From an uncultured Candidatus Saccharibacteria bacterium (lineage in GTDB: Bacteria; Patescibacteriota; Minisyncoccia; Phycocordibacterales; UBA9973): 64,000 nt of DNA. A program made the position numbers and the translations under genes. Within the stretch, counting starts at the first letter, position 1, and every line of letters begins with the position of its first letter. Below the pieces are notes generated by a model. The model was given only the letters and a program-made list of their open reading frames with translations, ran no database searches and was not told the DNA's origin. Location: contig CAYGDG010000004.1 in assembly GCA_964348725.1 (NCBI GenBank), positions 2,133-66,132 on the forward strand. Direction: 5' to 3'. Below are positions 10,828 through 64,000 of the stretch, piece after piece.

Positions 10828-10837
10828 TTTCTGCATT

Positions 10838-10873
10838 CACCCTCTCCTTAATAAGGAGAGGGCAGGGTGAGGT
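10838..10873 (+). repeat. palindromic element copy A (CACCCTCTCCTTAATAAGGAGAGGGCAGGGTGAGGTG), intergenic, 10 nt upstream of the msrB ATG
   Basis: A 10-bp perfect inverted repeat (CCCTCTCCTT / AAGGAGAGGG) with a 3-nt loop, followed by CAGGGTGAGGT. Near-identical to copy B at 61264..61298. Confidence 0.8.
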
Positions 10874-13223: not shown

Positions 13224-14138
13224 ATGCTATCCGCGATTTTTACTATAGTCGGTTTGTCCTTATTTGAGGCGGTTTCGTCCGTGGACAATGCCATCATAAA
13301 TGCCGAAGTATTATCCACAATGGGGCAGAAGGCGCGCCGGTGGTTTTTGACTTGGGGAATGTTCATCGCGGTATTTGCGGTGCGCGGGCTTCTGCCTTTC
13401 GGAATCATCTGGGCATTTAATACTTCGCTCACGCCTTTGCAAGTCATCTCCGCCGCGTGGTCTTCCGATCCTCTGGTCGTGGAGTCAATCCAAAAATCCG
13501 CTCCTATCCTGCTGGTAGCCGGCGGCGTGTTCCTGCTCTTCCTCTTTCTCCACTGGCTTTTCTTGGAAGACAAGAAGCTCGGCTTGCCGCGCGCGGAAAA
13601 ATTCTTTATGGAAAAAGGTATCTGGTTTTATGCCACGGTTTCCATCCTGCTCGCTGTCATCGCTTGGTTCGCCTTACAGGAGAGCAACTTGATGGGCTTC
13701 GGCGCAGTCATCGGCTCCACGCTCTTTTTCATCACGCACGGCTTCAAGCAGAATGCCGAAATGCAGGAGAAAAAATTGCTCGGCTCGGCGCATTCCGACC
13801 TTTCAAAACTTTTCTTTTTGGAAATTATTGATACCACTTTTTCCATTGACGGCGTGCTCGGCGCATTCGCTTTCACCCTTTCCATCCCGCTCATCCTCAT
13901 CGGAAACGGCTTCGGCGCGCTCCTCGTAAGGCAGCTCACTATCCACAATATTGAACGCATCAAGAAATATGTGTACCTAAAGAACGGCGCGATGTATTCC
14001 ATCCTCGTGCTTGGCGTGGTGATGGTCCTGCACGCTTTCGGCTTCCACATCCCGGAATGGGTTTCTCCGCTTTCCACTGTAGTCATCATCGGCGGATTCT
14101 TCTGGAAATCAAAAATAGAACTCAAAAATGCCAAATAA
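13224..14138 (+). CDS. DUF475/TerC-like integral membrane protein
   Basis: Two internal repeats, each with an (F/V)S(V/I)D(N/G) motif (EAVSSVDNAIINAEVL and DTTFSIDGVLGAFAF). Polytopic. Confidence 0.55.
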   Translation: MLSAIFTIVGLSLFEAVSSVDNAIINAEVLSTMGQKARRWFLTWGMFIAVFAVRGLLPFGIIWAFNTSLTPLQVISAAWSSDPLVVESIQKSAPILLVAGGVFLLFLFLHWLFLEDKKLGLPRAEKFFMEKGIWFYATVSILLAVIAWFALQESNLMGFGAVIGSTLFFITHGFKQNAEMQEKKLLGSAHSDLSKLFFLEIIDTTFSIDGVLGAFAFTLSIPLILIGNGFGALLVRQLTIHNIERIKKYVYLKNGAMYSILVLGVVMVLHAFGFHIPEWVSPLSTVVIIGGFFWKSKIELKNAK

Positions 14139-17133
14139 AGATTTTAGTGAAGAATATAACCAATTAAACAAAGCTCAAAAGGAAGCCGTGGACGCCATTG
14201 ATGGTCCGGTGATGGTAGTCGCCGGGCCGGGCACGGGGAAGACGCAGATTCTGGCTCTGCGCATCGCGAATATTCTGACGAAGACGGACACGAAGGCGGA
14301 CGGCATCTTGTGCCTCACCTTTACAAATGCTGGCGTGAAAGCGATGCGCCAGCGCCTACGCGCGTATATCGGCGCGGAAGCGAGTAAGGTGAAAGTGGCG
14401 ACCTTCCATAGCTTCGGTATGGAGATGGTGGAAAAATATTTCGCCGCGCTGGACTTACCCGAAGCGCCGCAGCTGATGGATGAAAAGGATTCCGTGGCAT
14501 TGTGCGATTCCATTCTGCACAGCCGCGACTGGGCTCAAATCCGCCCGCGCTCGGATGCTTCGCGATATTTTCGTGATTTGAAATCATTGATTTCGCTCCT
14601 GAAGCGCGAGCGCCTCGCGCCGGAAATCTTTGCCGCCGAAGTGCGCGCCGAAATACAATCCATACAAGAAGACCCAGAAAATATTTCTTCGCGCGGAGCG
14701 ACAAAAGGCGAATTGAAGAAAGACGCCCTCGCGAAAATGGATTCGCTTTCGCGCACGCTGGAAGCCGTAGAATTTTACGGACTGTACGAAGAAGCGAAAA
14801 AAGAGAAGAACGCATTTGATTATGACGATGTGCTGGAAGCATTAGTGAAGATAGTGGAATTATCAGAGGAATCAGGCTATTTTATCAGAGAAAATTATCA
14901 GTATATTTTGATAGACGAGCACCAGGATTCCTCCGGCGTGCAGAACGAATTTTTGGACAAAGTATGGGGCGGGGAAGAAATGCCTAATATTTTCGTCGTC
15001 GGCGATGACCGCCAGCTCATTTACGGCTTCGGCGGCGCATCATTGGAATACTTTGAAAATTTCAAGCACGCATTCGGCAAAGCGAAATTCATCACCCTGA
15101 CGGAAAACTACCGCTCCACCGCGCCGATTTTGGAAGCCGCGCATTCGCTTTTGCAAAGCTCTATCACGAAAGAGAAATTGCAGAGCCAGAGCAAGGAAAA
15201 ACATCCACTCCGCATTTTTGAATGCGACTATCCGCGCGATGAGATAATTCTGGCGGGCATAGAGATGAAAGAACGCCTTGCCAAAGGGGAAGACAAGAAC
15301 GAGATGTCCATTCTTTTGCCGAAGAATCGCCAAGTGCGCAGTGCGGTGGCGATATTGCGCGATATGGGCTTGCCTGTTTCTTCCGGCGAATCGCTGAACT
15401 TCTTTGATTCCTCTGAAGCGCGGGCGATAATTCGCGTGCTCAAAATAATCGCCGACCCGCACGATGGCGCGGCGCTTGCCGAAAGCTTTTTTGATACATT
15501 GTCCGGCATCGCGCCGCTGGATGCGCATAAATTCCTGCGCACGGTTAAGATGCGCGAATTTTCTTTGGCAAATACCACAGAGGAGAAATCCCTTTTCGGA
15601 AATGCCATTGCCGACTGGCTCGCCAAGCTCCGCTCGTGGCTCGCTGTTTCAGGCACGCTGTCCGCATATTCCCTCATCCAGCACATCGGTACGGAATTCT
15701 TGTTGAACACCGCGAAGAATCATGACGAATTAGTACGCCGCGTGGAAGTAATTCGCACCGTGCTTCATCTCGCGCTCGCGCAAATGGAAAAACAGCCGAA
15801 GCAAAAGCTTTCTGATTTTCTCGCTTTCATAGACCGCCTGGAATCATACGGCGAACACATCCCATTGTCCGTTTTCTCCGCCGACGAAGGCATCAAAGTG
15901 CTCACGCTCCACGGCTCAAAGGGCTTGGAATTTGATTATGTGTGGATAGCGCATATGGATGAAAAATCTTTGGCGGGTTCGGCGAACCGCGGCTTCGCAT
16001 TGCCCGCGCGCATAGAAGAAAAAAAAGAACAGAAAGATGAAATGGTGCTGAAGCGCCAGCTGTATGTCGCCATCACTCGCGCAAAAAGATTTTGCACGCT
16101 GTCGTACCCGGTGCATTCGTACACGGGAGGGGATTTGGAGCTCGCACATATCATCGCCGACTTGTCCGCCACGGCGGATAAACCGGAAGGAATTTTTGAA
16201 AAGAAAAATAAAGATGAGACGGAGGGAATGATATTGAAGCACGACCCGAAGGTATACATTGCAAGCAAAAAAGAAGAAAAAGAAAATACTGGTTTGGCAG
16301 AATTGGCAAAACTTGTCGCCAAGGATTACGAAGACAGAAAAGTGTCCGTGTCTTTGCTCAATAACTTTTTTGAATGTCCGTGGAAATGGTACTTCAGGAA
16401 TTTGCTTCAGCTTCCAGAGCCGGAAACAGCGAGCTTGGAATTTGGAAATGCCGTGCACGCGTCCATAGATAAGATTTTGAAAACTCCCGGCACGCCGAGC
16501 GCCAAAGAAATAGAAAACATAGTCACCGAAGCGGTAGAAAAAAGCAAAGTATCCCTCAGCCAGAAAGAAGTGCTCTCGCTCGTGCAGTATTGGGCAAAGA
16601 ACCGCCTGCCGGAAATCAGCACAAACAGGAAAAATGAAGAGCCTGTGCCCGTCTCGGATGAACGCTTCCCACATCTGTCCATTTACGGAAAAATTGACCT
16701 GATAGAAATTTTAGATAAGGAAGCCGTGCGCGTCACCGACTTCAAAACCGGCAGCGCCAAGAAAAAAAGCGAGATAGAAGGCCGCGTTTCAGTGGACGGT
16801 ACGCGGCATGATTCCGCTGAATCAGACAGAGGGCGGCTTTCAAACCTGATGCGCCAGCTGGCGATGTATTCATATTTGCTTTCCAATAATGCAAAATGGA
16901 AAAAAGATGTGCGCGAAAGCCGCCTGGAATTTGTGGAATCAAAAGACGCCAACAATTTTTACAATACCGTCATTCAGCCGGAGCACATTTCACTCCTCGT
17001 GCAGGATATCGCGGACTATGACACCCTACTCAAATCAGGGCAGTGGCTTTCTCGCCCGTGCAATTTTAAATCCTACGGCAAAGCCGACGCTGTGTGTGAG
17101 TATTGCAAACGAGGAGGAATCTATAAGCAATAA
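14128..17133 (+). CDS. UvrD/PcrA-like superfamily-1 helicase fused to a C-terminal Fe-S PD-(D/E)xK (RecB/AddB/Cas4-type) nuclease domain
   Basis: Walker A VVAGPGTGKTQILALRIA. Motif II ILIDEHQDSS. VVGDDRQLIYGFGGA. Helicase C-terminal motifs LTLHGSKGLEFDYVWI and VAITRAK. The C-terminus has CPWKWYF ... IDLIEI ... DFKTGS ... and the cysteine triad CNFKSYGKADAVCEYC. Confidence 0.8.
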   Translation: MPNKDFSEEYNQLNKAQKEAVDAIDGPVMVVAGPGTGKTQILALRIANILTKTDTKADGILCLTFTNAGVKAMRQRLRAYIGAEASKVKVATFHSFGMEMVEKYFAALDLPEAPQLMDEKDSVALCDSILHSRDWAQIRPRSDASRYFRDLKSLISLLKRERLAPEIFAAEVRAEIQSIQEDPENISSRGATKGELKKDALAKMDSLSRTLEAVEFYGLYEEAKKEKNAFDYDDVLEALVKIVELSEESGYFIRENYQYILIDEHQDSSGVQNEFLDKVWGGEEMPNIFVVGDDRQLIYGFGGASLEYFENFKHAFGKAKFITLTENYRSTAPILEAAHSLLQSSITKEKLQSQSKEKHPLRIFECDYPRDEIILAGIEMKERLAKGEDKNEMSILLPKNRQVRSAVAILRDMGLPVSSGESLNFFDSSEARAIIRVLKIIADPHDGAALAESFFDTLSGIAPLDAHKFLRTVKMREFSLANTTEEKSLFGNAIADWLAKLRSWLAVSGTLSAYSLIQHIGTEFLLNTAKNHDELVRRVEVIRTVLHLALAQMEKQPKQKLSDFLAFIDRLESYGEHIPLSVFSADEGIKVLTLHGSKGLEFDYVWIAHMDEKSLAGSANRGFALPARIEEKKEQKDEMVLKRQLYVAITRAKRFCTLSYPVHSYTGGDLELAHIIADLSATADKPEGIFEKKNKDETEGMILKHDPKVYIASKKEEKENTGLAELAKLVAKDYEDRKVSVSLLNNFFECPWKWYFRNLLQLPEPETASLEFGNAVHASIDKILKTPGTPSAKEIENIVTEAVEKSKVSLSQKEVLSLVQYWAKNRLPEISTNRKNEEPVPVSDERFPHLSIYGKIDLIEILDKEAVRVTDFKTGSAKKKSEIEGRVSVDGTRHDSAESDRGRLSNLMRQLAMYSYLLSNNAKWKKDVRESRLEFVESKDANNFYNTVIQPEHISLLVQDIADYDTLLKSGQWLSRPCNFKSYGKADAVCEYCKRGGIYKQ

Positions 17134-17139
17134 TTATTT

Positions 17140-17171
17140 GTAACATTTTCTGCGATAGCAGAGATTGTTAC
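17140..17171 (+). promoter_or_regulatory. 32-nt palindrome copy 1 (GTAACATTTTCTGCGATAGCAGAGATTGTTAC): putative operator and/or terminator
   Basis: Outer inverted repeat GTAACA/TGTTAC plus inner CTGCGATAGCAG. Identical to copy 2. Followed by a T-run. Confidence 0.5.
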
Positions 17172-17296
17172 ATTTAGATATTTTTTATTACTTTTTTATC
17201 AAATATTTAAGAAGGTTTTTTATAATCCCTTCAAATCAGTTATGAGGTAGCCGAAAATCACAAAAAGAGTAGGCATACAAATTTAATATTTTAGCT

Positions 17297-17980
17297 ATGA
17301 AAAAAGTTTTGTTCTTTGTAATTATTTTGGCTATTGCTCCGCCTCTGTCTGCGCAAGTGCACATAGAGGCTCTGGATTTTCCGACAGCTATGACAGTGCC
17401 CGGAGAGAATCAGATGTTTGCTCGGTATCAGATCGCGTCCGATTCAAATTCGGCATATCTGTATATGGATACCTGCAATATGCTTTTCTACGATTTCGGG
17501 AATTTCTCGGGGATGTCCCTGCGGAATGTCAGGCTGTTCGTAGACGGCGAGGAAAGATTGATGCAGATGACGATGCCCGGTGATTTCTGGCAATTTTATC
17601 CGAGCATATTGCTCGGTTTTCCGTATGGCTTTGCGGACACGGCGCAGATTCATTTTCTGGCTGATCTGCCGGACACGCTCGGTGATGACTTCATCCCCTC
17701 CGTAGGCGATTCGCTGTATGCGAGTATCCATTGCAGCTGTCATTATGTTACAGGCACCGGCTCTTTTGCCACCAATGAAGCCATCAGCCAGACTGTCTTC
17801 GTGACGTCTTCCTCCGTCGGAATTGCGCAACCTTCGCCGCAAAATTTCTCCGAGCGCCAAAATGCTCGCTTCTTTGATATCTTAGGCAGAGAAATCAGCC
17901 GAAGCAATCTGGAAAATCTCCCGCCCGGCGTGTACATCTGGCGGAGTGACCGCTTGGCAGGGAAAATCCTCGTGCGGTAA
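17297..17980 (+). CDS. secreted protein with a T9SS (Por)-type C-terminal sorting-domain-like tail
   Basis: Signal peptide MKKVLFFVIILAIAPPLSAQ. The C-terminus FFDILGREISRSNLENLPPGVYIWRSDRLAGKILVR resembles the Por_Secre_tail consensus (..D..GR.V......LP.GVYI......GK..K.LV). Confidence 0.5.
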   Translation: MKKVLFFVIILAIAPPLSAQVHIEALDFPTAMTVPGENQMFARYQIASDSNSAYLYMDTCNMLFYDFGNFSGMSLRNVRLFVDGEERLMQMTMPGDFWQFYPSILLGFPYGFADTAQIHFLADLPDTLGDDFIPSVGDSLYASIHCSCHYVTGTGSFATNEAISQTVFVTSSSVGIAQPSPQNFSERQNARFFDILGREISRSNLENLPPGVYIWRSDRLAGKILVR

Positions 17981-18034
17981 AAATTACTCGCGAGAAAAGC
18001 CATCGGGAACGGTGGCTTTCTTTTTACCAAGAAT

Positions 18035-18066
18035 GTAACATTTTCTGCGATAGCAGAGATTGTTAC
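18035..18066 (+). promoter_or_regulatory. 32-nt palindrome copy 2, immediately upstream of a TATAAT and the PaaX-like gene
   Basis: Identical to copy 1. Followed by ATCTAATCACACCTATAATAATATG, so it overlaps the likely promoter of 18089..18571. Confidence 0.5.
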
Positions 18067-18088
18067 ATCTAATCACACCTATAATAAT

Positions 18089-18571
18089 ATGAGCATAGTT
18101 AACGAAATTTTGCAGCAGTTAAATAAACAGGCATTTAATTACAAAGGCGCGCGCGTCAGTTTCTTTGGTATTCCAGAATTTAAAAAATATCGCACGGGCT
18201 CAGTCCGGGCGACTTTCTCTCGCTTGCTTGCCGATGGGCTCGTAGAAGATTGCGGTGACTTGCGCATCACAGTGAAAGGAAAAGAATATATAAAAAGAAA
18301 AATTGATTCACTGAAGCAGTTTGATTTCCGATTTGCCAAAGACGCGCCGAAGAATCTGATGGTAATGTTTGATGTGCCTGAGACGAAGAAGGCGGAGAGG
18401 GAATGGCTGCGCTGGCAGCTAAAAAAATTCAGTTACTTGATGATTCAAAAGAGTGTGTGGGTCGGCCCGTCGCCCTTGCCAAAGGAATTTATGGAGTATG
18501 TGGAAGAAATCGGTCTGAAAGACAGCCTAAAGACCTTTAAACTGGCGAAAGGGTATGACTTTAAAAAATAG
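18089..18571 (+). CDS. PaaX-like small transcriptional regulator (N-terminal winged HTH plus Cas2-like ferredoxin-fold domain)
   Basis: The N-terminus GSVRATFSRLLADGLVEDCGDLRITVKGKEYIKRK is wHTH-like. The middle NLMVMFDVPETKKAEREWLRWQLKKFSYLMIQKSVWVGPSP matches the PaaX/Cas2 pattern (PaaX: KWLLLLSEGLDKSTLADVKKQLIWQGFGALAPSLMASPS; Cas2: LVVV...R.RL...L...G..VQ.SV). Confidence 0.4.
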   Translation: MSIVNEILQQLNKQAFNYKGARVSFFGIPEFKKYRTGSVRATFSRLLADGLVEDCGDLRITVKGKEYIKRKIDSLKQFDFRFAKDAPKNLMVMFDVPETKKAEREWLRWQLKKFSYLMIQKSVWVGPSPLPKEFMEYVEEIGLKDSLKTFKLAKGYDFKK

Positions 18572-18578
18572 AAAATAA

Positions 18579-18610
18579 GTTACATTTCCTGCTATCGCAG
18601 AGTTTGTAAC
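18579..18610 (+). promoter_or_regulatory. 32-nt palindrome copy 3 (GTTACATTTCCTGCTATCGCAGAGTTTGTAAC), just after the PaaX-like stop codon
   Basis: Same architecture as copies 1 and 2, with the core reverse-complemented. Followed by TTTTAT. Confidence 0.5.
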
Positions 18611-18783
18611 TTTTATAAATATTTCGGCGCGTTGTCCAGCCAGCCCAAAATAAAGCCCAGAGCGAGGAAGATGACAAGCAGAACGGCGAGGATTATGTAG
18701 GTTTTTCGCATATCTTAATTATATAAGATAATAACCAAAATAAAAACAGGAAGCTTGTAATTACAAGCTTCCTGTTCATTTTT

Positions 18784-19146
18784 TTACCTCTTCTTTCTTT
18801 TGAGCATTTGGAGTAACTCTTTTTGTGTTCCAACTACTTCTTTGAGTAATTCTATTTCCTGCTCATAACGGGAAACTTTTTCTTTCAGTTCCTTGATTTC
18901 GGAACCGAAAACTAGATTTCCGTCAAAAGATTCCAGTTCAGTTTCTGTGATATGTAAGGCATCGCATATGAGTTTCAAGGTGTGGTGGTTGACCTTGCCA
19001 TTTTTTTCGATGTGGGAAATCATTGCCCTTGTCTTGTGGATTTTTTCCGCAAGGTCACTCTGGGTCATATCTCTCAAAATTCTTATGAGCATTATTTTCT
19101 TGCCCAGGTTCATTTTCTTAGAATCGGGTAGCGTAGATTTTTTCAT
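18784..19146 (-). CDS. XRE-family HTH transcriptional regulator with C-terminal coiled coil
   Basis: IRILRDMTQSDLAEKIHKTRAMISHIEKNGKVNHHTLKLICDALHI is a Cro/C1-type HTH. Confidence 0.7.
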   Translation of the reverse strand: MKKSTLPDSKKMNLGKKIMLIRILRDMTQSDLAEKIHKTRAMISHIEKNGKVNHHTLKLICDALHITETELESFDGNLVFGSEIKELKEKVSRYEQEIELLKEVVGTQKELLQMLKRKKR

Positions 19147-35994: not shown

Positions 35995-37952
35995 GCTAGT
36001 TCGTAATCAATTATTTTGCGCTCCAAATCTGCCTTTTTTACTTTTATTTTTACGCTGTCGCCCAGGCGATAGCGCTTTTTCTTTTTCTTGCCGACGAGCT
36101 CCAGTTTTTTCTCGTCAAAGATATAAAAATCGTCCGATATGTCGCGGGCGCGTACCATGCCTTCGCACTTTGTCTCAATTTCTTCCACGTATATGCCCCA
36201 CTCGGTGACGCCGGAGATGATGCCTTTAAATGTCTCCCCAATACGGTGCGACATGTATTCCGTCTGCTTGTATTTGATGGATGCGCGTTCAGCGTCAGAT
36301 GCGCGCTTTTCCTGGTCGGAACTTTTGCGGGACATCATCTCATACTCGCTCAATTTTTCTTTCGGCACTTTCTTGCCGGCAAGGTATTCCATAAGCAGGC
36401 GGTGCACCATCACGTCCGGATAGCGGCGGATAGGGGAAGTAAAGTGCGTGTAGTGCTCAAAAGCGAGGCCGTAGTGCCCGATATTTTTTGTGGAGTATAT
36501 CGCTTTTGCCATAGAGCGGATGACCGCGCGATGCACGGCGTCCTTTTCGGGCTTGCCGGCGAGCGAGGCGAGGAGTTTATTTATTTCAAATGGGGGAATG
36601 ACGCCGTTCAGTAATTTTACTTTGTATCCGAGGCCGTTTAGGAAGAGCGCAAGGTCGTGCATTTTTTCTTTTTCCGGCGCGTCATGAATGCGGTACACGA
36701 AGACGCCTTCGCCTTTCTTCATTCCTTTGCCAATGCGTTCGGCTACTTTACGATTCGCGAGGAGCATGAGCTCTTCTATCAATTTATTTGAATCTCCGCG
36801 CACTTTTTTTATGACTTTGAGCGGCACGCCTTTTTCATCCAGCACGAATTTTACTTCTTCCTGGTCCAAAGACACTGCGCCTTTCCGGAAGCGCTCAGCG
36901 GTGAGCTTTTTGGCGATGCCGTTTATGATGGCGAGTTCCGCGTGTAATTCACCATTCTTATCCGTGATAGATTTCTCCGCGTCTTCATAGCTGAAACGCT
37001 TTGCGGAGTGGATGACGGTGCGGCCGAACCATTCATCCAGTACCTGACCTTCTGTGTTCATGTGGAATACGGCGCTCATGGTCAGGCGGTCCTGGCCGGG
37101 CACGAGGGAGCAGAGATCATTTGAAAGTACTTCGGGGAGCATGGGTATCGTCCTGTCTACCAAATATACAGAAGTCGCCCGCTCGCGCGCTTCCTGATCC
37201 AGCTCGCTGCCGGGACGCACGTAATACGATACGTCTGCGATGTGGATGCCGATTTCGTACACCTCACCCCCTGACCCCCTCTCCTTAGTAAGGAGAGGGG
37301 GAAGAATGCGGAAAGAAATCGCGTCATCAAAATCTTTCGCATCTGCCGGGTCAATAGTGAAGGTGAGTATGTTTCTGAAATCGCGGCGGCCTTCGTAATC
37401 TTTTTCAGAAATGCCGAGCCGGCTGATGGCCTGCGCTTCATCTTCCGTACCTCTTGGCAGATCTGGCGCAAAGCCGCGCTCAATGGCGATGGCATTCATC
37501 TCGGCGGAATTTTCGCCCGGCTTGCCGAGCACGCGCATGACTTTTCCTTCAGGCGCTTTGCGCGCATCTTTCCACGACGCTATCTCTACGTACGCTTTTT
37601 CGCCGGCTTTGGCGCCGCCCAGGTTCGCCGGGGGGATCAAGATGTCCGTATACATCTTTGTATCATCTGGCTTCAAAAAAAACACGCCGTTCTCTTCTTC
37701 AATCACGCCGGAAAAACCACGCTTGGCGCGGGATATGATTTCCACCACTTCGCCCGTCTGCCGCACACCTTTCTTTTGCGGGAATAAGGCCACGAGCACG
37801 GTATCGCCGTGCAGGCCGGTGTGCAGATGCAGGGATTCTATTTCCACATCTTCTTCATCTTTCTTTTTTTTCGGTTCCAATGTGCGCAGGTAGCCTACGC
37901 CTTTACCGGAAACAGACAGTATGCCTTCAAGGCGGTTAGATTGTGTATCCAT
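35991..37952 (-). CDS. rnr: ribonuclease R (RNB-family 3'-5' exoribonuclease) carrying an in-frame palindromic-element insertion
   Basis: Cold-shock-like N-terminal domains. RNB motifs FTIDPADAKDFDDAISF and HFTSPIRRYPDVMVHRLL. C-terminal S1 domain and a K-rich tail. Confidence 0.85.
   Translation of the reverse strand: MDTQSNRLEGILSVSGKGVGYLRTLEPKKKKDEEDVEIESLHLHTGLHGDTVLVALFPQKKGVRQTGEVVEIISRAKRGFSGVIEEENGVFFLKPDDTKMYTDILIPPANLGGAKAGEKAYVEIASWKDARKAPEGKVMRVLGKPGENSAEMNAIAIERGFAPDLPRGTEDEAQAISRLGISEKDYEGRRDFRNILTFTIDPADAKDFDDAISFRILPPLLTKERGSGGEVYEIGIHIADVSYYVRPGSELDQEARERATSVYLVDRTIPMLPEVLSNDLCSLVPGQDRLTMSAVFHMNTEGQVLDEWFGRTVIHSAKRFSYEDAEKSITDKNGELHAELAIINGIAKKLTAERFRKGAVSLDQEEVKFVLDEKGVPLKVIKKVRGDSNKLIEELMLLANRKVAERIGKGMKKGEGVFVYRIHDAPEKEKMHDLALFLNGLGYKVKLLNGVIPPFEINKLLASLAGKPEKDAVHRAVIRSMAKAIYSTKNIGHYGLAFEHYTHFTSPIRRYPDVMVHRLLMEYLAGKKVPKEKLSEYEMMSRKSSDQEKRASDAERASIKYKQTEYMSHRIGETFKGIISGVTEWGIYVEEIETKCEGMVRARDISDDFYIFDEKKLELVGKKKKKRYRLGDSVKIKVKKADLERKIIDYELA
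37261..37300 (-). repeat. palindromic element copy C, in-frame inside rnr (encodes PPLLTKERGSGGEV)
   Basis: The sense strand reads CCCCCTCTCCTTACTAAGGAGAGGGGGTCAGGGGGTGAGG. Same family as copies A and B, with substitutions that remove in-frame stop codons. Confidence 0.7.
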
Positions 37953-60498: not shown

Positions 60499-61276
60499 AA
60501 AGAATCGGCAGAAAAAATATCGCACCATTGCGATAGGCGTTTTCATTTTGCTCGTCGCCATATATTTCCGTGCGGAAATTTACAATGGCTTTTCGCGTGT
60601 TCTCGGCGCGGTGGCAAAACCATTTCTCTCGTTCGGCCGAAATGTGGGCGGCGGCATTTCCGGCACTGGCGCGGCTTTTGCTTCCAAAAAATCTTTGCGT
60701 GCGGAAAATGAAAATCTAGAGGCACAGCTCGCCGAAATGCAGGGCAGGATGGGGAACTATGATATTCTGGCCGCCGAAAATGAAAACTTGAAAGAAATAT
60801 TGGCGAGAAAAAAAACTCCCGGCACATTGCTCCTCGCCGCCATCCTCGCACATCCGAACCGCTCTTTATACGATACTGTACTTATAGACGCGGGCGAAGC
60901 TGAAGGGGTGAAAGCAGGCGACAGGGTATTCGCGGAAGGCGATATACCGCTCGGCACAGTGGCGGAAGTCATGCCGCACTCGGCAAAAGTGCTCTTGTAT
61001 TCAAATCCCGGCGAGAAGACCGAAGCCATCCTCGGCGAAGGGCATGTCACCCTCACCGGCCGCGGCAGGGGAAATTTTGAGATGATTCTGCCGCGTGATT
61101 ATGTATTGGAGCCAGGCACTGCCGCGCATCTGCCCGGTATATATCCGTATGTCATTGCCCGCACGGCCACGGTCATTTCCGACCCGCGGGATTCGTTTCA
61201 GAAAGCGTTACTGATCAGCCCGGTGAATATTAATCACCTCAAATTTGTGGAGGTGGAGGTTTCACCCTCTCCTTAA
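60479..61276 (+). CDS. mreC: rod shape-determining protein MreC
   Basis: N-terminal TM segment. Coiled coil ENENLEAQLAEMQ ... ENENLKEIL. Beta-rich C-terminal domain. The last 6 codons and the TAA stop lie inside palindromic element copy B. Overlaps mreB. Confidence 0.8.
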   Translation: MSYLLDKKNRQKKYRTIAIGVFILLVAIYFRAEIYNGFSRVLGAVAKPFLSFGRNVGGGISGTGAAFASKKSLRAENENLEAQLAEMQGRMGNYDILAAENENLKEILARKKTPGTLLLAAILAHPNRSLYDTVLIDAGEAEGVKAGDRVFAEGDIPLGTVAEVMPHSAKVLLYSNPGEKTEAILGEGHVTLTGRGRGNFEMILPRDYVLEPGTAAHLPGIYPYVIARTATVISDPRDSFQKALLISPVNINHLKFVEVEVSPSP

Positions 61277-61298
61277 TAAGGAGAGGGCAGGGTGAGGT
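61264..61298 (+). repeat. palindromic element copy B (CACCCTCTCCTTAATAAGGAGAGGGCAGGGTGAGGT), between mreC and tgt
   Basis: Identical over about 35 nt to copy A. It supplies the mreC stop codon and a GGTGAGGT motif 5 nt upstream of the tgt ATG. Confidence 0.8.
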
Positions 61299-63081: not shown

Positions 63082-64000
63082 ATGGGGTTTAAACTCAAAA
63101 CTGAATTTCAGCCTGCGGGCGACCAGCCGAAGGCTATAGAGGGGCTGGTGAGCGGGCTCAAAAAGGGTATGCGGAAGCAGACATTGCTGGGTGTGACGGG
63201 TTCGGGCAAGACTTTTACGATGGCGAATGTCATACAGCAGATGCAAAAGCCGACGCTGGTGATAGCGCATAACAAGACCCTGGCCGCCCAGCTGGCGCAG
63301 GAGTTCAAGGAATTTTTTCCGGAAAATGCCGTGCATTATTTTGTTTCTTATTACGATTATTACCAGCCGGAAGCGTACTTGCCGACGACGGACACATACA
63401 TAGAAAAAGACGCGCAAATAAATAAAGAGATTGATCGGCTTCGTCATGCGAGTACGCAGGCACTTTTGTCCAGAAAAGATGTGATAATAGTTGCCTCAGT
63501 GTCCTGCATTTACGGCTTGGGAAGTCCGGAAGAATATAAGGAAGAAAATATGTCCCTCGCCGTGGGCGATGCCGCCGGGCGCTCGGAGATAATGAAGCGC
63601 CTTATCGGTATGCATTTCTCGCGCACGAATGCGGACCTGACGCCGGGAACTTTCCGCGCGATGGGGCAAAAGGTAGAACTGATGCCGATTTCGGAGACTT
63701 TTACATATAGTATTGAATTTTCCCCCTCTCCTTTACAAGGAGAGGGCGGGGGTGAGGTTCTTCGCATTTTAAAAATAGACGCCGTGTCATCCAAAGTCCT
63801 CGGTGAAGAGCAGAATATTTTTATTTTTCCGGCGAAGCACTTCATCACGAACAAAGCGAAGCTTCAGCAGGCGATAAAAAATATCAAAGAAGAACTGAAA
63901 GCCCAGCTGAAGAAATTTGATAAGGAAGGAAAAATTTTGGAAGCCGAGCGGCTGAAGCGCCGCACGAATTATGATCTGGCGATGCTGCGCGAAGTGGGCT
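63082..64000 (+). CDS. uvrB: excinuclease ABC subunit B (5' part; continues beyond window)
   Basis: MGFKLKTEFQPAGDQPKAIEGLVSGL ... QTLLGVTGSGKTFTMANVI ... YFVSYYDYYQPEAY ... ASVSCIYGLGSPEEY. Confidence 0.9.
   Translation, partial: MGFKLKTEFQPAGDQPKAIEGLVSGLKKGMRKQTLLGVTGSGKTFTMANVIQQMQKPTLVIAHNKTLAAQLAQEFKEFFPENAVHYFVSYYDYYQPEAYLPTTDTYIEKDAQINKEIDRLRHASTQALLSRKDVIIVASVSCIYGLGSPEEYKEENMSLAVGDAAGRSEIMKRLIGMHFSRTNADLTPGTFRAMGQKVELMPISETFTYSIEFSPSPLQGEGGGEVLRILKIDAVSSKVLGEEQNIFIFPAKHFITNKAKLQQAIKNIKEELKAQLKKFDKEGKILEAERLKRRTNYDLAMLREVG
63722..63758 (+). repeat. palindromic element copy D in-frame inside uvrB (encodes SPSPLQGEGGGEV)
   Basis: CCCCCTCTCCTTTACAAGGAGAGGGCGGGGGTGAGGT. Same family. 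The stop-creating positions are altered (TTTACAA loop, GGCGGGGG). Confidence 0.7.

What the first reader, a model, noticed from the sequence alone, without database searches (positions are those of the whole stretch)
17140..18610. PaaX-like wHTH/Cas2-fold regulator bracketed by three copies of a 32-nt palindrome
GTAACATTTTCTGCGATAGCAGAGATTGTTAC occurs identically at 17140 and 18035. A core-inverted variant, GTTACATTTCCTGCTATCGCAGAGTTTGTAAC, occurs at 18579. The three copies sit upstream of the T9SS-tail secreted protein gene (17297..17980), in the promoter (TATAAT) of the small regulator gene (18089..18571), and immediately after that gene's stop. The regulator has an N-terminal winged HTH. 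Its second domain follows the PaaX/Cas2 pattern (..LMVMFDVPE..R.WLRWQL...YLMIQKSVWVGPSP), but the protein is about half the size of canonical PaaX. A dimeric wHTH protein flanked by nested palindromes looks like an autoregulated cassette that also controls the adjacent secreted protein. The palindromes may double as terminators.
Basis: partly seen in the sequence, partly recalled or inferred. Interest (0 to 1): 0.65.

Follow-up and report, generated by a model that had tools for sequence, protein, structure and literature searches.

The report
Self-bracketing mini-PaaX regulator and its operators
A small DNA-binding protein of an uncultured "candidate phyla radiation" bacterium sits between copies of its own 32-bp binding site, and about 150 related loci show the same layout, with protein and site changing together closely enough to read part of the recognition code from sequence alone.

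Summary
GTAACATTTTCTGCGATAGCAGAGATTGTTAC occurs at 17140 and 18035, and a 26/32 variant occurs at 18579. No such matches are expected by chance. Gene 18089-18571 encodes a 160-aa protein with a PaaX_M (Cas2-like) domain (E 3.6e-14) and no PaaX C-terminal domain. The organism is a Patescibacteria (Nomurabacteria/Paceibacteria) bacterium.

Comparison decides the reading. In about 150 homologous loci the gene is bracketed by one ~32-bp palindrome over its leaderless promoter and a second just after its stop. The two copies match within a locus (median 27/32) but not between loci or between paralogs of one genome. The outer arms are 95-97% symmetric, while the spacer is not. There is no RNA-wobble strand bias and no terminator signature. 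Residue 98 of the Cas2-like domain tracks the central base pairs: Glu goes with GATA/TATC/GATC and never with CATG, while Gln/Thr go mostly with CATG. This switch occurred at least 5 times independently.

I conclude the palindromes are double-stranded operators of the encoded dimer, arranged like E. coli PaaX sites (6-bp arms far apart). The copy at 17140 puts a lineage-specific orphan gene inside the bracket. The "T9SS tail" is unsupported, and a terminator role is not specifically supported. The role of the downstream operator remains unknown.

The parts
14128..17133 (+). UvrD-type helicase fused to a PD-(D/E)XK nuclease. It is the conserved upstream neighbour of this regulator's orthologs.
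   Evidence: Pfam UvrD-helicase 4.9e-59, UvrD_C and PDDEXK_1 3e-23. The same gene sits directly upstream in L001, L004, L005, L006, L009, L015, L030, L031, L033, L161 and L163.
17140..17171 (.). Operator copy P1. It is identical to P2, lies 6 nt after the helicase stop, and is upstream of the orphan gene.
   Evidence: The equivalent extra site after the helicase stop in L161 precedes a different cargo gene.
17221..17226 (+). TATAAT, the candidate -10 of the orphan gene. P1 is centred about 77 bp upstream of the predicted start of transcription.
   Evidence: Read from the sequence. This is a prediction only.
17241..17275 (+). Match to Rfam DUF805b cis-regulatory RNA motif in the 5' leader of the orphan gene
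   Evidence: 41.4 bits against a gathering score of 35.6, E 2.4e-8. Two of the four stem pairs are non-canonical.
17297..17980 (+). 227-aa orphan protein with an N-terminal signal-peptide-like segment, the lineage-specific cargo between P1 and P2
   Evidence: Its only match among 5.8 billion proteins is itself. No Pfam or NCBIfam family matches.
17996..18026 (+). Canonical intrinsic terminator of the orphan gene (G+C-rich stem followed by a T run), just upstream of P2
18035..18066 (.). Operator copy P2 (the upstream operator), centred 38 bp before the ATG and covering the -35 region of the regulator's promoter
   Evidence: Relatives have the same position, with the centre 35-38 bp before the ATG.
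18080..18085 (+). TATAAT -10 of the regulator gene. It lies 3 nt before the ATG, whereas 126 of 157 relatives have 6-8 nt.
18089..18571 (+). Regulator of 160 aa: an N-terminal wHTH-like domain (recognition helix about residues 36-48, wing 52-60), a linker helix, and a Cas2-like ferredoxin-fold domain (90-151). D95 is invariant and E98 is the specificity residue.
18579..18610 (.). Operator copy P3 (the downstream operator), with centre TATC. It fills the gap between the converging stops of the regulator gene and the small peptide gene.
18613..18711 (-). Conserved 32-aa hydrophobic peptide gene (MRKTYIILAVLLVIFLALGFILGWLDNAPKYL) that converges on P3
   Evidence: Homologs sit in the same place in L001, L002, L007, L010, L017 and L030 (about 0.9 kb further downstream in L004), and on the other side of the regulator in L161.

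Best explanation
The 32-bp palindromes are double-stranded DNA operators of the protein encoded between them. That protein is a 'mini-PaaX': a winged-helix domain plus a Cas2-like dimerisation domain, without the ligand-binding C-terminal domain of PaaX.

Inferred binding mode. A homodimer sits on the dyad. The first turn of helix alpha1 of each Cas2-like domain (P-E98-T-K-K) reads the central CTGC-NATN-GCAG. The two winged helices read the 5-6 bp outer arms, 13-17 bp from the centre. The A/T-rich spacer in between is not read base by base.

Roles of the three copies. P2 overlaps the -35 region of an extended -10, leaderless promoter, so the protein sets its own level. Repression is the more likely direction, as for PaaX at its Px promoter. 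P3 is a second operator at the 3' end of the gene and is conserved across the family. Its role is inferred only: an auxiliary operator that raises local occupancy (looping), and/or a protein roadblock that insulates the gene from the converging neighbour. P1 is a third copy that places a lineage-specific orphan gene, inserted between the helicase gene and the regulator, inside the bracket and probably under the same control.

Shown by comparison: the sites belong to the protein and co-evolve with it. Inferred: the sign of regulation, the oligomeric state, and the roles of P3 and P1.
For: (1) Bracket. 77 of 79 genome loci and 75 of 78 metagenome loci carry the same palindrome upstream and downstream of the homolog. 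Within-locus identity has a median of 27/32. It is about 20/32 between loci and 19/32 in displaced controls.

(2) Paralogs of one genome have different sites: 17.8/32 between paralogs against 25.5/32 within a locus.

(3) Symmetry profile. The arms are 95-97% symmetric although their sequence differs between clades. The GC core is about 100% symmetric. The spacer is only 34-50% symmetric.

(4) No RNA signature. G.T and A.C mismatches number 107 and 103. Sense and antisense folding energies are equal. Upstream and downstream copies have the same T-tracts.

(5) Residue 98 against the central tetranucleotide. E98 accompanies 0 CATG in about 240 sites (about 230 of them GATA/TATC/GATC/TATA/GACC). 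T98 accompanies CATG in 16 of 18 sites and Q98 in 12 of 22. V/I98 go mainly with CTAG/CTAT/ATAG/ACCT. Q98 arose in at least 5 separate clades, each next to E98 relatives.

(6) The recognition-helix motif tracks the arm type.

(7) Promoter geometry. The -10 lies 6-8 nt before the start codon in 126 of 157 loci, carries a TG extension in 97, and no locus has a Shine-Dalgarno-like sequence. The site centre lies at -35/-36, at -44 to -47, or at -9, depending on the clade.

(8) E. coli PaaX binds TGATTC-N27-GAATCA and represses its own promoter (PMC9493321). That is the same widely spaced inverted-arm design.

(9) The site is absent from the rest of the 64-kb window and differs from the window's canonical terminators.
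Against: - No binding, transcription or structural data exist for any member, and all sequences come from metagenome bins.
- Transcription start sites are predicted. In this window the -10 is only 3 nt from the ATG, which is atypical.
- The site centres at -35 and -45 are one helical turn apart, which would also suit an activator.
- The distance between upstream and downstream sites (498-700 bp) shows no helical phasing, so looping gains no support from phasing.
- A regulator whose only visible targets are itself and one neighbour does not explain why the Cas2-like domain, including the Cas2 catalytic-position Asp95, is nearly invariant.
- The mutual-information analysis for the arms is confounded by phylogeny.
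- The AF2 model has only moderate confidence (pLDDT 72.9) and the fold matches have weak E-values.
Confidence: 0.72

Rival explanations
1. The palindromes act mainly as RNA hairpins: intrinsic (bidirectional) terminators at gene ends, which look alike only because of duplication.
For: All three copies lie at gene ends. P1 is 6 nt after the helicase stop and P3 lies between converging stops. They fold at -12.7 to -20.5 kcal/mol with z-scores of -4.7 to -6.9. P3 is followed by TTTTAT. The flanks are A-rich on the 5' side and T-rich on the 3' side in many loci. In orthologs no other hairpin lies between the helicase gene and the regulator.
Against: - The upstream copies lie upstream of the -10 and are not part of the gene's own transcript.
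- P2 is preceded by a canonical terminator.
- The spacer is not complementary (34-50%).
- There is no excess of G.T over A.C mismatches and no difference between sense and antisense folding.
- The downstream copies have no more T-tract than the upstream copies.
- The window's real terminators have G+C-rich stems with A and T runs.
- A terminator would not need to match the upstream site, or to co-vary with residue 98 of the protein.
Confidence: 0.1
2. The palindromes are cassette junctions. They would be recombination or cleavage sites, possibly cut by the Cas2-like domain of the encoded protein, at which genes are gained, lost or shuffled. Integron attC sites, pdif modules and REP/RAYT systems work in this way.
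For: - The Asp at the Cas2 catalytic position is invariant. The Cas2 models score just below their cut-offs (21.8 against 23.8 bits; 24.2 against 24.5 bits).
- The slot between the helicase gene and the regulator holds different genes in close relatives: an orphan here, a pilin-like gene in L161, a kinase-like gene in L164, and nothing in L163.
- The cargo here is flanked by two identical 38-nt copies.
- The small peptide gene lies on opposite sides of the regulator in this window and in L161.
- There are several paralogous cassettes per genome.
Against: - Each paralog group keeps stable synteny across many genomes: the helicase gene for group 1, and a tRNA gene and a conserved ~406-424-aa gene for group 2.
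- There are only 2-3 sites per locus and none elsewhere in 64 kb.
- No recombinase gene was seen among the genes next to the locus that were scanned; the rest of the window was not scanned.
- The fixed spacing to the -10 is what an operator needs.
- Canonical PaaX shares the fold and is a plain repressor.
Confidence: 0.1
3. The protein binds the transcribed downstream palindrome as an RNA hairpin through its RRM-like Cas2 fold. It would control the stability or 3'-end formation of its own mRNA, while the upstream copy works at the DNA level.
For: Cas2-family proteins have a ferredoxin/RRM-like fold, and some solved members are described as RNases (fold hit 3exc). The downstream copy lies within 0-30 nt of the stop in most loci and is therefore transcribed.
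Against: There is no strand asymmetry or wobble signature at the downstream copies (58 G.T against 44 A.C mismatches, not significant). The downstream and upstream copies are statistically indistinguishable. Dual recognition of dsDNA and RNA by the same surface is uncommon (general knowledge).
Confidence: 0.05

Closest known systems
PaaX, repressor of the phenylacetate catabolon (E. coli W, Pseudomonas)
   Same: Both have a wHTH followed by a Cas2-like dimerisation domain (PF20803 hit; PDB 8a39, 3l09 and 3kfw among the fold hits). Both operators are built from two 6-bp inverted arms far apart (TGATTC-N27-GAATCA). PaaX also represses its own promoter (PMC9493321).
   Different: This protein is half the size and has no PaaX_C ligand domain. 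It scores 13.8 bits against a 264.55-bit cut-off on TIGR02277. No paa genes were seen among the neighbours that were scanned. The arm spacing is N20 rather than N27. The centre of the site is conserved and co-varies with the Cas2-like domain. A second operator follows the stop codon. The promoter is leaderless.
Cas2 (CRISPR adaptation protein)
   Same: The beta-alpha-beta-beta-alpha-beta fold is shared, and an Asp follows beta1 at the catalytic position. Several database entries name homologs 'Cas2'. From general knowledge, the Cas2 dimer lies along duplex DNA in the Cas1-Cas2 complex.
   Different: This protein has a fused wHTH. The window shows no CRISPR-like array; cas1 was not searched for. 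The scores fall below both curated Cas2 cut-offs. The 'Cas2' database names are therefore most likely mis-annotations.
Auxiliary operators with DNA looping (lac O1/O2, gal OE/OI, deo)
   Same: A primary operator lies at the promoter and a second, similar operator lies several hundred bp downstream.
   Different: Here the second operator lies beyond the stop codon, so the whole gene lies inside the putative loop. The regulator is the only gene enclosed. There is no phasing, and nothing shows that the protein forms tetramers.
REP/RAYT, pdif modules and integron attC cassettes
   Same: Palindromic sites flank a gene, and in REP/RAYT that gene's product acts on the sites. The cargo between sites varies among relatives.
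   Different: There are only 2-3 sites and they are not dispersed. Synteny is stable. No tyrosine recombinase or Y1 transposase was seen among the genes that were scanned. The site-to-promoter geometry is fixed.

Membership tests
PaaX family (TIGR02277; Pfam PaaX, PaaX_M and PaaX_C) | Central Cas2-like domain PF20803 (PaaX_M) | tested here: met
   E 3.6e-14, 53.1 bits against a cut-off of 24, residues 91-152. Homologs carry the same domain.
PaaX family (TIGR02277; Pfam PaaX, PaaX_M and PaaX_C) | C-terminal PaaX_C effector (phenylacetyl-CoA) domain and a full length of about 300 aa | tested here: not met
   The protein ends at residue 160 and has no PaaX_C hit. TIGR02277 scores 13.8 bits against a 264.55-bit cut-off. 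The family members found are mostly 155-190 aa.
PaaX family (TIGR02277; Pfam PaaX, PaaX_M and PaaX_C) | N-terminal PaaX-type wHTH recognised by its sequence model | tested here: inconclusive
   No Pfam PaaX N-terminal hit at E<=0.1. The model shows a helix plus wing. There are weak wHTH matches: S19e and SSO2273 at E 0.1-0.2, and CggR_N at 4.8e-5 in a paralog.
PaaX family (TIGR02277; Pfam PaaX, PaaX_M and PaaX_C) | Operator of two 6-bp inverted arms separated by a long spacer, with autorepression | tested here: inconclusive
   The architecture is analogous (6-bp arms, N20 against N27) and the site overlaps the protein's own promoter. Binding and the sign of regulation were not measured.
PaaX family (TIGR02277; Pfam PaaX, PaaX_M and PaaX_C) | Genomic link to paa (phenylacetate) genes | tested here: not met
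   The neighbours are a helicase-nuclease, an orphan gene, a small peptide gene, an XRE regulator, a rhodanese and PheS.
Cas2 (PF09827 / TIGR01573) | Score above the curated cut-off | tested here: not met
   21.8 bits against 23.8 and 24.2 bits against 24.5. Borderline.
Cas2 (PF09827 / TIGR01573) | Adjacent cas1 gene and CRISPR array | tested here: not met
   The 64-kb window has no regularly spaced direct-repeat array. The three palindromes are 895 and 544 bp apart. cas1 was not searched with an HMM.
Intrinsic (Rho-independent) terminator | G+C-rich uninterrupted stem followed by a U-tract, with an RNA-level pairing signature | tested here: not met
   The consensus scan does not call the sites. 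The spacer is unpaired. There is no G.T bias and no T-tract excess at the downstream copies. P3 alone has TTTTAT.
Autoregulatory operator of the adjacent transcription factor | Two-fold symmetric site at a fixed position in the factor's own promoter, co-varying with the factor | tested here: met
Autoregulatory operator of the adjacent transcription factor | Direct binding of the protein and an effect on transcription | not testable with these tools
   Needs EMSA or footprinting and reporter assays.
T9SS C-terminal sorting domain (for the 227-aa neighbour) | Por_Secre_tail / TIGR04183 match | tested here: not met
   No Pfam or NCBIfam hit, even at E<=10 on the C-terminal 86 aa.

The most novel reading that the evidence does not exclude
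The wHTH-Cas2-like protein is more than a repressor. It would be a site-specific DNA-processing protein in which the Cas2 fold, with its invariant catalytic-position Asp, both reads and cuts or pairs the palindromes. The palindromes would be cassette junctions at which neighbouring genes are captured and exchanged, such as the orphan gene here and the pilin-like gene in L161. That would make this a previously unrecognised gene-cassette system in candidate-phyla-radiation bacteria, evolutionarily close to the CRISPR adaptation protein Cas2.
Probability: 0.08. Interest if true: 0.85.

Novelty: new variant of a known kind. Interest (0 to 1): 0.6.

Why it matters
As far as I know, hardly any regulator-operator pair has been characterised in Patescibacteria (CPR), which are mostly uncultured; my literature searches found none for this family.

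- **A testable regulator family.** This is a large family: 816 clusters at 50% identity, with several paralogs per genome. Each member's operator can be read directly from the two flanks of its gene. That yields a natural specificity table of arm type against recognition helix, and of central base pairs against residue 98. The table can be tested with a few EMSAs.
- **A new role for a Cas2-type fold.** The data predict that a Cas2-type fold reads DNA sequence at the dyad. This would explain how PaaX-type repressors span their unusually long operators, for which no DNA complex has been solved (PMC9493321).
- **An open question.** The conserved operator after the stop codon is an unexplained design feature. 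It could act through looping, as a roadblock, or as an insulator.
- **A correction.** The results indicate that database 'Cas2' names for these proteins are wrong.

Tried and rejected
- **Mutual information between protein columns and arm positions.** The top columns include recognition-helix and wing residues but also unrelated variable columns. The analysis is confounded by phylogeny and I did not use it as evidence. I replaced it with independent-contrast counting for residue 98.
- **Helical phasing of the upstream-to-downstream distance.** None found.
- **Terminator features of the downstream copies compared with the upstream copies.** No difference.
- **Rfam, at gathering and E-value thresholds, on the window and 20 loci.** No family covers the palindromes.
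- **Literature searches for PaaX/Cas2-like proteins in CPR bacteria.** Nothing on this family.
- **Homologs of the 227-aa neighbour.** None, so its context elsewhere could not be compared.
- **The first simple palindrome finder.** It mis-registered many sites because of the non-symmetric spacer. I replaced it with up/down pair matching.
- **CRISPR reading.** Rejected: the spacings are 895 and 544 bp and there is no array.
- **Mobile-element reading.** Kept only as a low-probability rival because synteny is stable.
Full report
**Observation.** The 32-mer GTAACATTTTCTGCGATAGCAGAGATTGTTAC occurs identically at 17140-17171 (P1) and 18035-18066 (P2). A degenerate pattern built on the arms and core finds these two plus GTTACATTTCCTGCTATCGCAGAGTTTGTAAC at 18579-18610 (P3). 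It finds nothing else in 64 kb, and no match appears in 100 shuffles. P1 and P2 share 38 nt at 97% identity. P3 matches 26/32. Its centre reads TATC instead of GATA, and arm positions 3 and 30 are exchanged A<->T, so the symmetry survives.

**The protein.** Pfam places residues 91-152 in PaaX_M, 'PaaX protein central Cas2-like domain' (E 3.6e-14). CRISPR_Cas2 scores just under its cut-off, and there is no PaaX_C domain. NCBIfam gives Cas2 24.2 bits against a 24.5-bit cut-off, and the PaaX equivalog 13.8 bits against 264.55. An AlphaFold2 model (pLDDT 72.9) shows three parts: a helix (36-48) followed by a beta wing (52-60), a linker helix, and a beta-alpha-beta-beta-alpha-beta domain at 90-151. 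Foldseek against the PDB ranks Cas2 proteins, Rv0674 (3kfw), E. coli PaaX (8a39) and 3l09 on top, with weak E-values of 0.016-0.08. The 'PaaX-like wHTH/Cas2-fold, half-size' description therefore holds. Homologs number 946 in the word-indexed search. They come from Candidatus Nomurabacteria, Paceibacterota and other Patescibacteria, are 160-165 aa long, and are 60-73% identical. A full profile search finds 816 clusters at 50% identity with E<=1e-10, mostly 155-190 aa. The Cas2-like half is almost invariant, including Asp95 at the Cas2 catalytic position. Several database entries call these proteins 'Cas2'. No CRISPR-like array is present in the window, so that name is most likely wrong.

**The comparative result.** I fetched 80 loci from species-representative genomes and 80 from metagenomes.
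- In 77 of 79 and 75 of 78 usable loci, the homolog is flanked by the same ~32-bp palindrome upstream of its start and just after its stop.
- The best upstream/downstream 32-mer identity within a locus has a median of 27/32. It is about 20/32 between loci and 19/32 for displaced control windows.
- The arm sequence differs between clades (GTTAGA, ACTTAT, GACACA, GTTAAC, TACTCA, TACC and others) but is the same on both sides of a gene.
- Genomes carry up to three paralogs, each with its own site. Identity is 17.8/32 between paralogous loci of one genome and 25.5/32 within a locus.

The bracket is therefore a property of the family, not of this window.

**DNA operator or RNA hairpin.** Several measurements point to double-stranded DNA.
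- Position by position, the arms (13-17 bp from the dyad) are 95-97% symmetric and the GC of the core is about 100% symmetric. The spacer 8-10 bp from the dyad is only 34-50% symmetric. It is pyrimidine/W-rich on both halves, as expected for a degenerate half-site rather than a stem.
- Among non-Watson-Crick positions, G.T (107) and A.C (103) are equally frequent.
- Sense and antisense folding energies are equal. The downstream copies have no more T-tract than the upstream copies.
- The window's genuine terminators are G+C-rich stems flanked by A and T runs. One of them, at 17996-18019, sits directly in front of P2.
- No Rfam family covers the sites in the window or in 20 related loci.

**Protein and site co-evolve.** The strongest protein-DNA association is between residue 98 and the base pair two positions from the dyad. 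Residue 98 is the first residue of helix alpha1 of the Cas2-like domain, in the motif F-D95-V-P-E98-T-K-K.
- In the genome set, E98 goes with GATA, TATC, GATC, TATA or GACC in 114 of 116 sites (one CATC and one GACA besides) and never with CATG. Q98 goes with CATG in 9 of 10 sites and T98 in 12 of 14. V/I98 go mainly with CTAG, CTAT or ATAG.
- On a neighbour-joining tree built without that column, Q98 appears in at least five separate places (L063, L079, L040, L044, L065). Each is next to E98 relatives with non-CATG centres.
- The metagenome set repeats the rule. E98 shows 0 CATG in about 124 sites, and T98 shows CATG in 4 of 4. Q98 shows CATG, CATA, TATG or TATA in 11 of 12 (CATG itself in 3).
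- The motif in helix 36-48 tracks the arm type: SLRGT with GTTAxA, SLSGT with ACTTA, and RSxRTTxDRL with GACACA.

I infer that the Cas2-like dimer sits on the dyad and reads the centre while the winged helices read the arms. This is comparative inference, not a structure. The two sets share some lineages, so the site counts are not all independent.

**Promoter geometry.** In 157 loci a -10 hexamer with at least 5/6 matches to TATAAT is present in 141. It ends 6-8 nt before the start codon in 126 and carries a TG extension in 97. No locus has a Shine-Dalgarno-like sequence. The family is therefore expressed from leaderless mRNAs. The centre of the upstream site lies 35-36 bp (46 loci), 44-47 bp (38 loci) or 9 bp (9 loci) before the start. 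It covers the -35 region or, in one clade, the -10 and the start itself. In this window the centre is at -38 and the -10 is only 3 nt from the ATG, which is an outlier. E. coli PaaX binds TGATTC-N27-GAATCA and represses its own Px promoter by steric hindrance. No PaaX-DNA complex has been solved (PMC9493321). The sites here have the same design with N20. I therefore regard autoregulation as well supported and repression as the more likely sign. The one-turn offset between -35 and -45 keeps activation open.

**The downstream copy (P3).** It lies 0-30 nt after the stop in most loci, and in some it overlaps the stop codon. The next gene converges in 48 of 81 loci, so P3 cannot in general be the operator of a downstream promoter. 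In this window it fills the gap between the regulator's stop and the stop of a conserved 32-aa hydrophobic peptide gene at 18613-18711 on the minus strand. That gene has homologs in the same position in L001, L002, L007, L010, L017 and L030, and about 0.9 kb further downstream in L004. The distance between the two operators is 498-700 bp with no helical phasing. An auxiliary operator (looping) or a protein roadblock/insulator both fit. The hairpin it forms when transcribed may help termination, but nothing in the sequences requires that.

**P1 and the neighbouring gene.** In orthologs the helicase-nuclease gene (14128-17133 here) is followed directly by the upstream operator and the regulator.
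- Here a 0.9-kb unit is inserted between two identical operator copies. It holds a -10, a match to the DUF805b RNA motif, a 227-aa orphan ORF and its own terminator.
- The ORF has no homolog among 5.8 billion proteins and no family match. The 'T9SS tail' is not supported. A signal-peptide-like N-terminus is visible.
- A relative whose regulator is 72% identical (L161) has the same three-site layout with different cargo, a prepilin-type N_methyl protein.
- L062 and L079 also have an extra site upstream of the gene that precedes the regulator.
- L164 has a kinase-like gene in the slot without an extra site, and L163 has an empty slot.

P1 is centred about 77 bp upstream of the predicted start, so the effect is unproven. 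The variable slot and the identical flanking copies are also what a cassette-junction model would predict. I keep that as a low-probability rival because synteny is otherwise stable, sites are few, and I saw no recombinase gene among the genes I scanned next to the locus.

**Verdict.** This is a real, non-random feature. It is best described as a new variant of the PaaX type of regulator: a ligand-domain-less 'mini-PaaX' that brackets its own gene with two operators, plus a third here. The family is large and is so far described only by automatic annotation. The open points are the sign of regulation, the role of the operator after the stop codon, and why the Cas2-like domain is so strongly conserved if the visible regulon is only local.

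Noticed in passing
window 17241-17275 (+): Match to the Rfam DUF805b cis-regulatory RNA motif (41.4 bits, gathering score 35.6) in the 5' leader of an orphan gene that has no DUF805 domain. Two of its four stem pairs are non-canonical, so the match rests mainly on sequence.
   Followed up: partly
window 10836-10873, 37273-37310, 61261-61298, 63720-63757: Four intergenic copies of a short hairpin repeat, CCCTCTCCTTAATAAGGAGAGGG followed by CAGGGTGAGG. Two copies are 100% identical over 38 nt. This is a REP-like dispersed element or terminator family, unrelated to the 32-mer.
   Followed up: partly
window 18613-18711 (-); also L001, L002, L004, L007, L010, L017, L030, L161: Conserved 32-aa hydrophobic peptide gene (consensus ..KTY.IL..L...F...G.YLGWLDNGP..) that converges on the regulator gene and ends 2 nt from P3. 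It falls below usual ORF-calling length and its function is unknown. In L161 it lies on the other side of the regulator.
   Followed up: partly
window 18745-18776: Perfect 32-bp palindrome AACAGGAAGCTTGTAATTACAAGCTTCCTGTT with T runs on both strands. It lies between the small peptide gene and an XRE-family HTH gene (18784-19146, minus strand). It is a bidirectional terminator, or the operator of that XRE protein. This XRE-plus-palindrome block is absent from the closest relatives L163 and L164.
   Followed up: no
window 18080-18091: The -10 TATAAT lies only 3 nt before the regulator's ATG, whereas 126 of 157 relatives have 6-8 nt. The promoter here seems to have been rebuilt after the insertion of the orphan gene. 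The sequence right of P1 (ATTTAGATATTTTTTATTAC) resembles the ancestral promoter of orthologs (AATTTGATATACTTTATTTATG).
   Followed up: partly
L046 2289-2928 and L048 545-1184: Two PaaX_M paralogs in tandem. A 192-aa paralog (E 6.2e-20) with its own palindrome of different arms (GACAAGT...ACTTGTA) sits directly upstream of the 159-aa homolog and its sites.
   Followed up: partly
L084 1017-1180 and L085 440-1172: Arrays of three to four copies of the locus-specific palindrome, with extra copies about 45 and 134 bp upstream of the promoter-proximal operator in L084 and no gene between them.
   Followed up: no
window 14128-17133: The UvrD-type helicase carries a C-terminal PD-(D/E)XK nuclease with a Cys-rich end (RPCNFKSYGK..CEYCK), as in AddB and Cas4. 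A Cas2-like gene follows it in many genomes. This may be coincidence, but the pairing of Cas4-like and Cas2-like folds outside CRISPR loci is notable.
   Followed up: no
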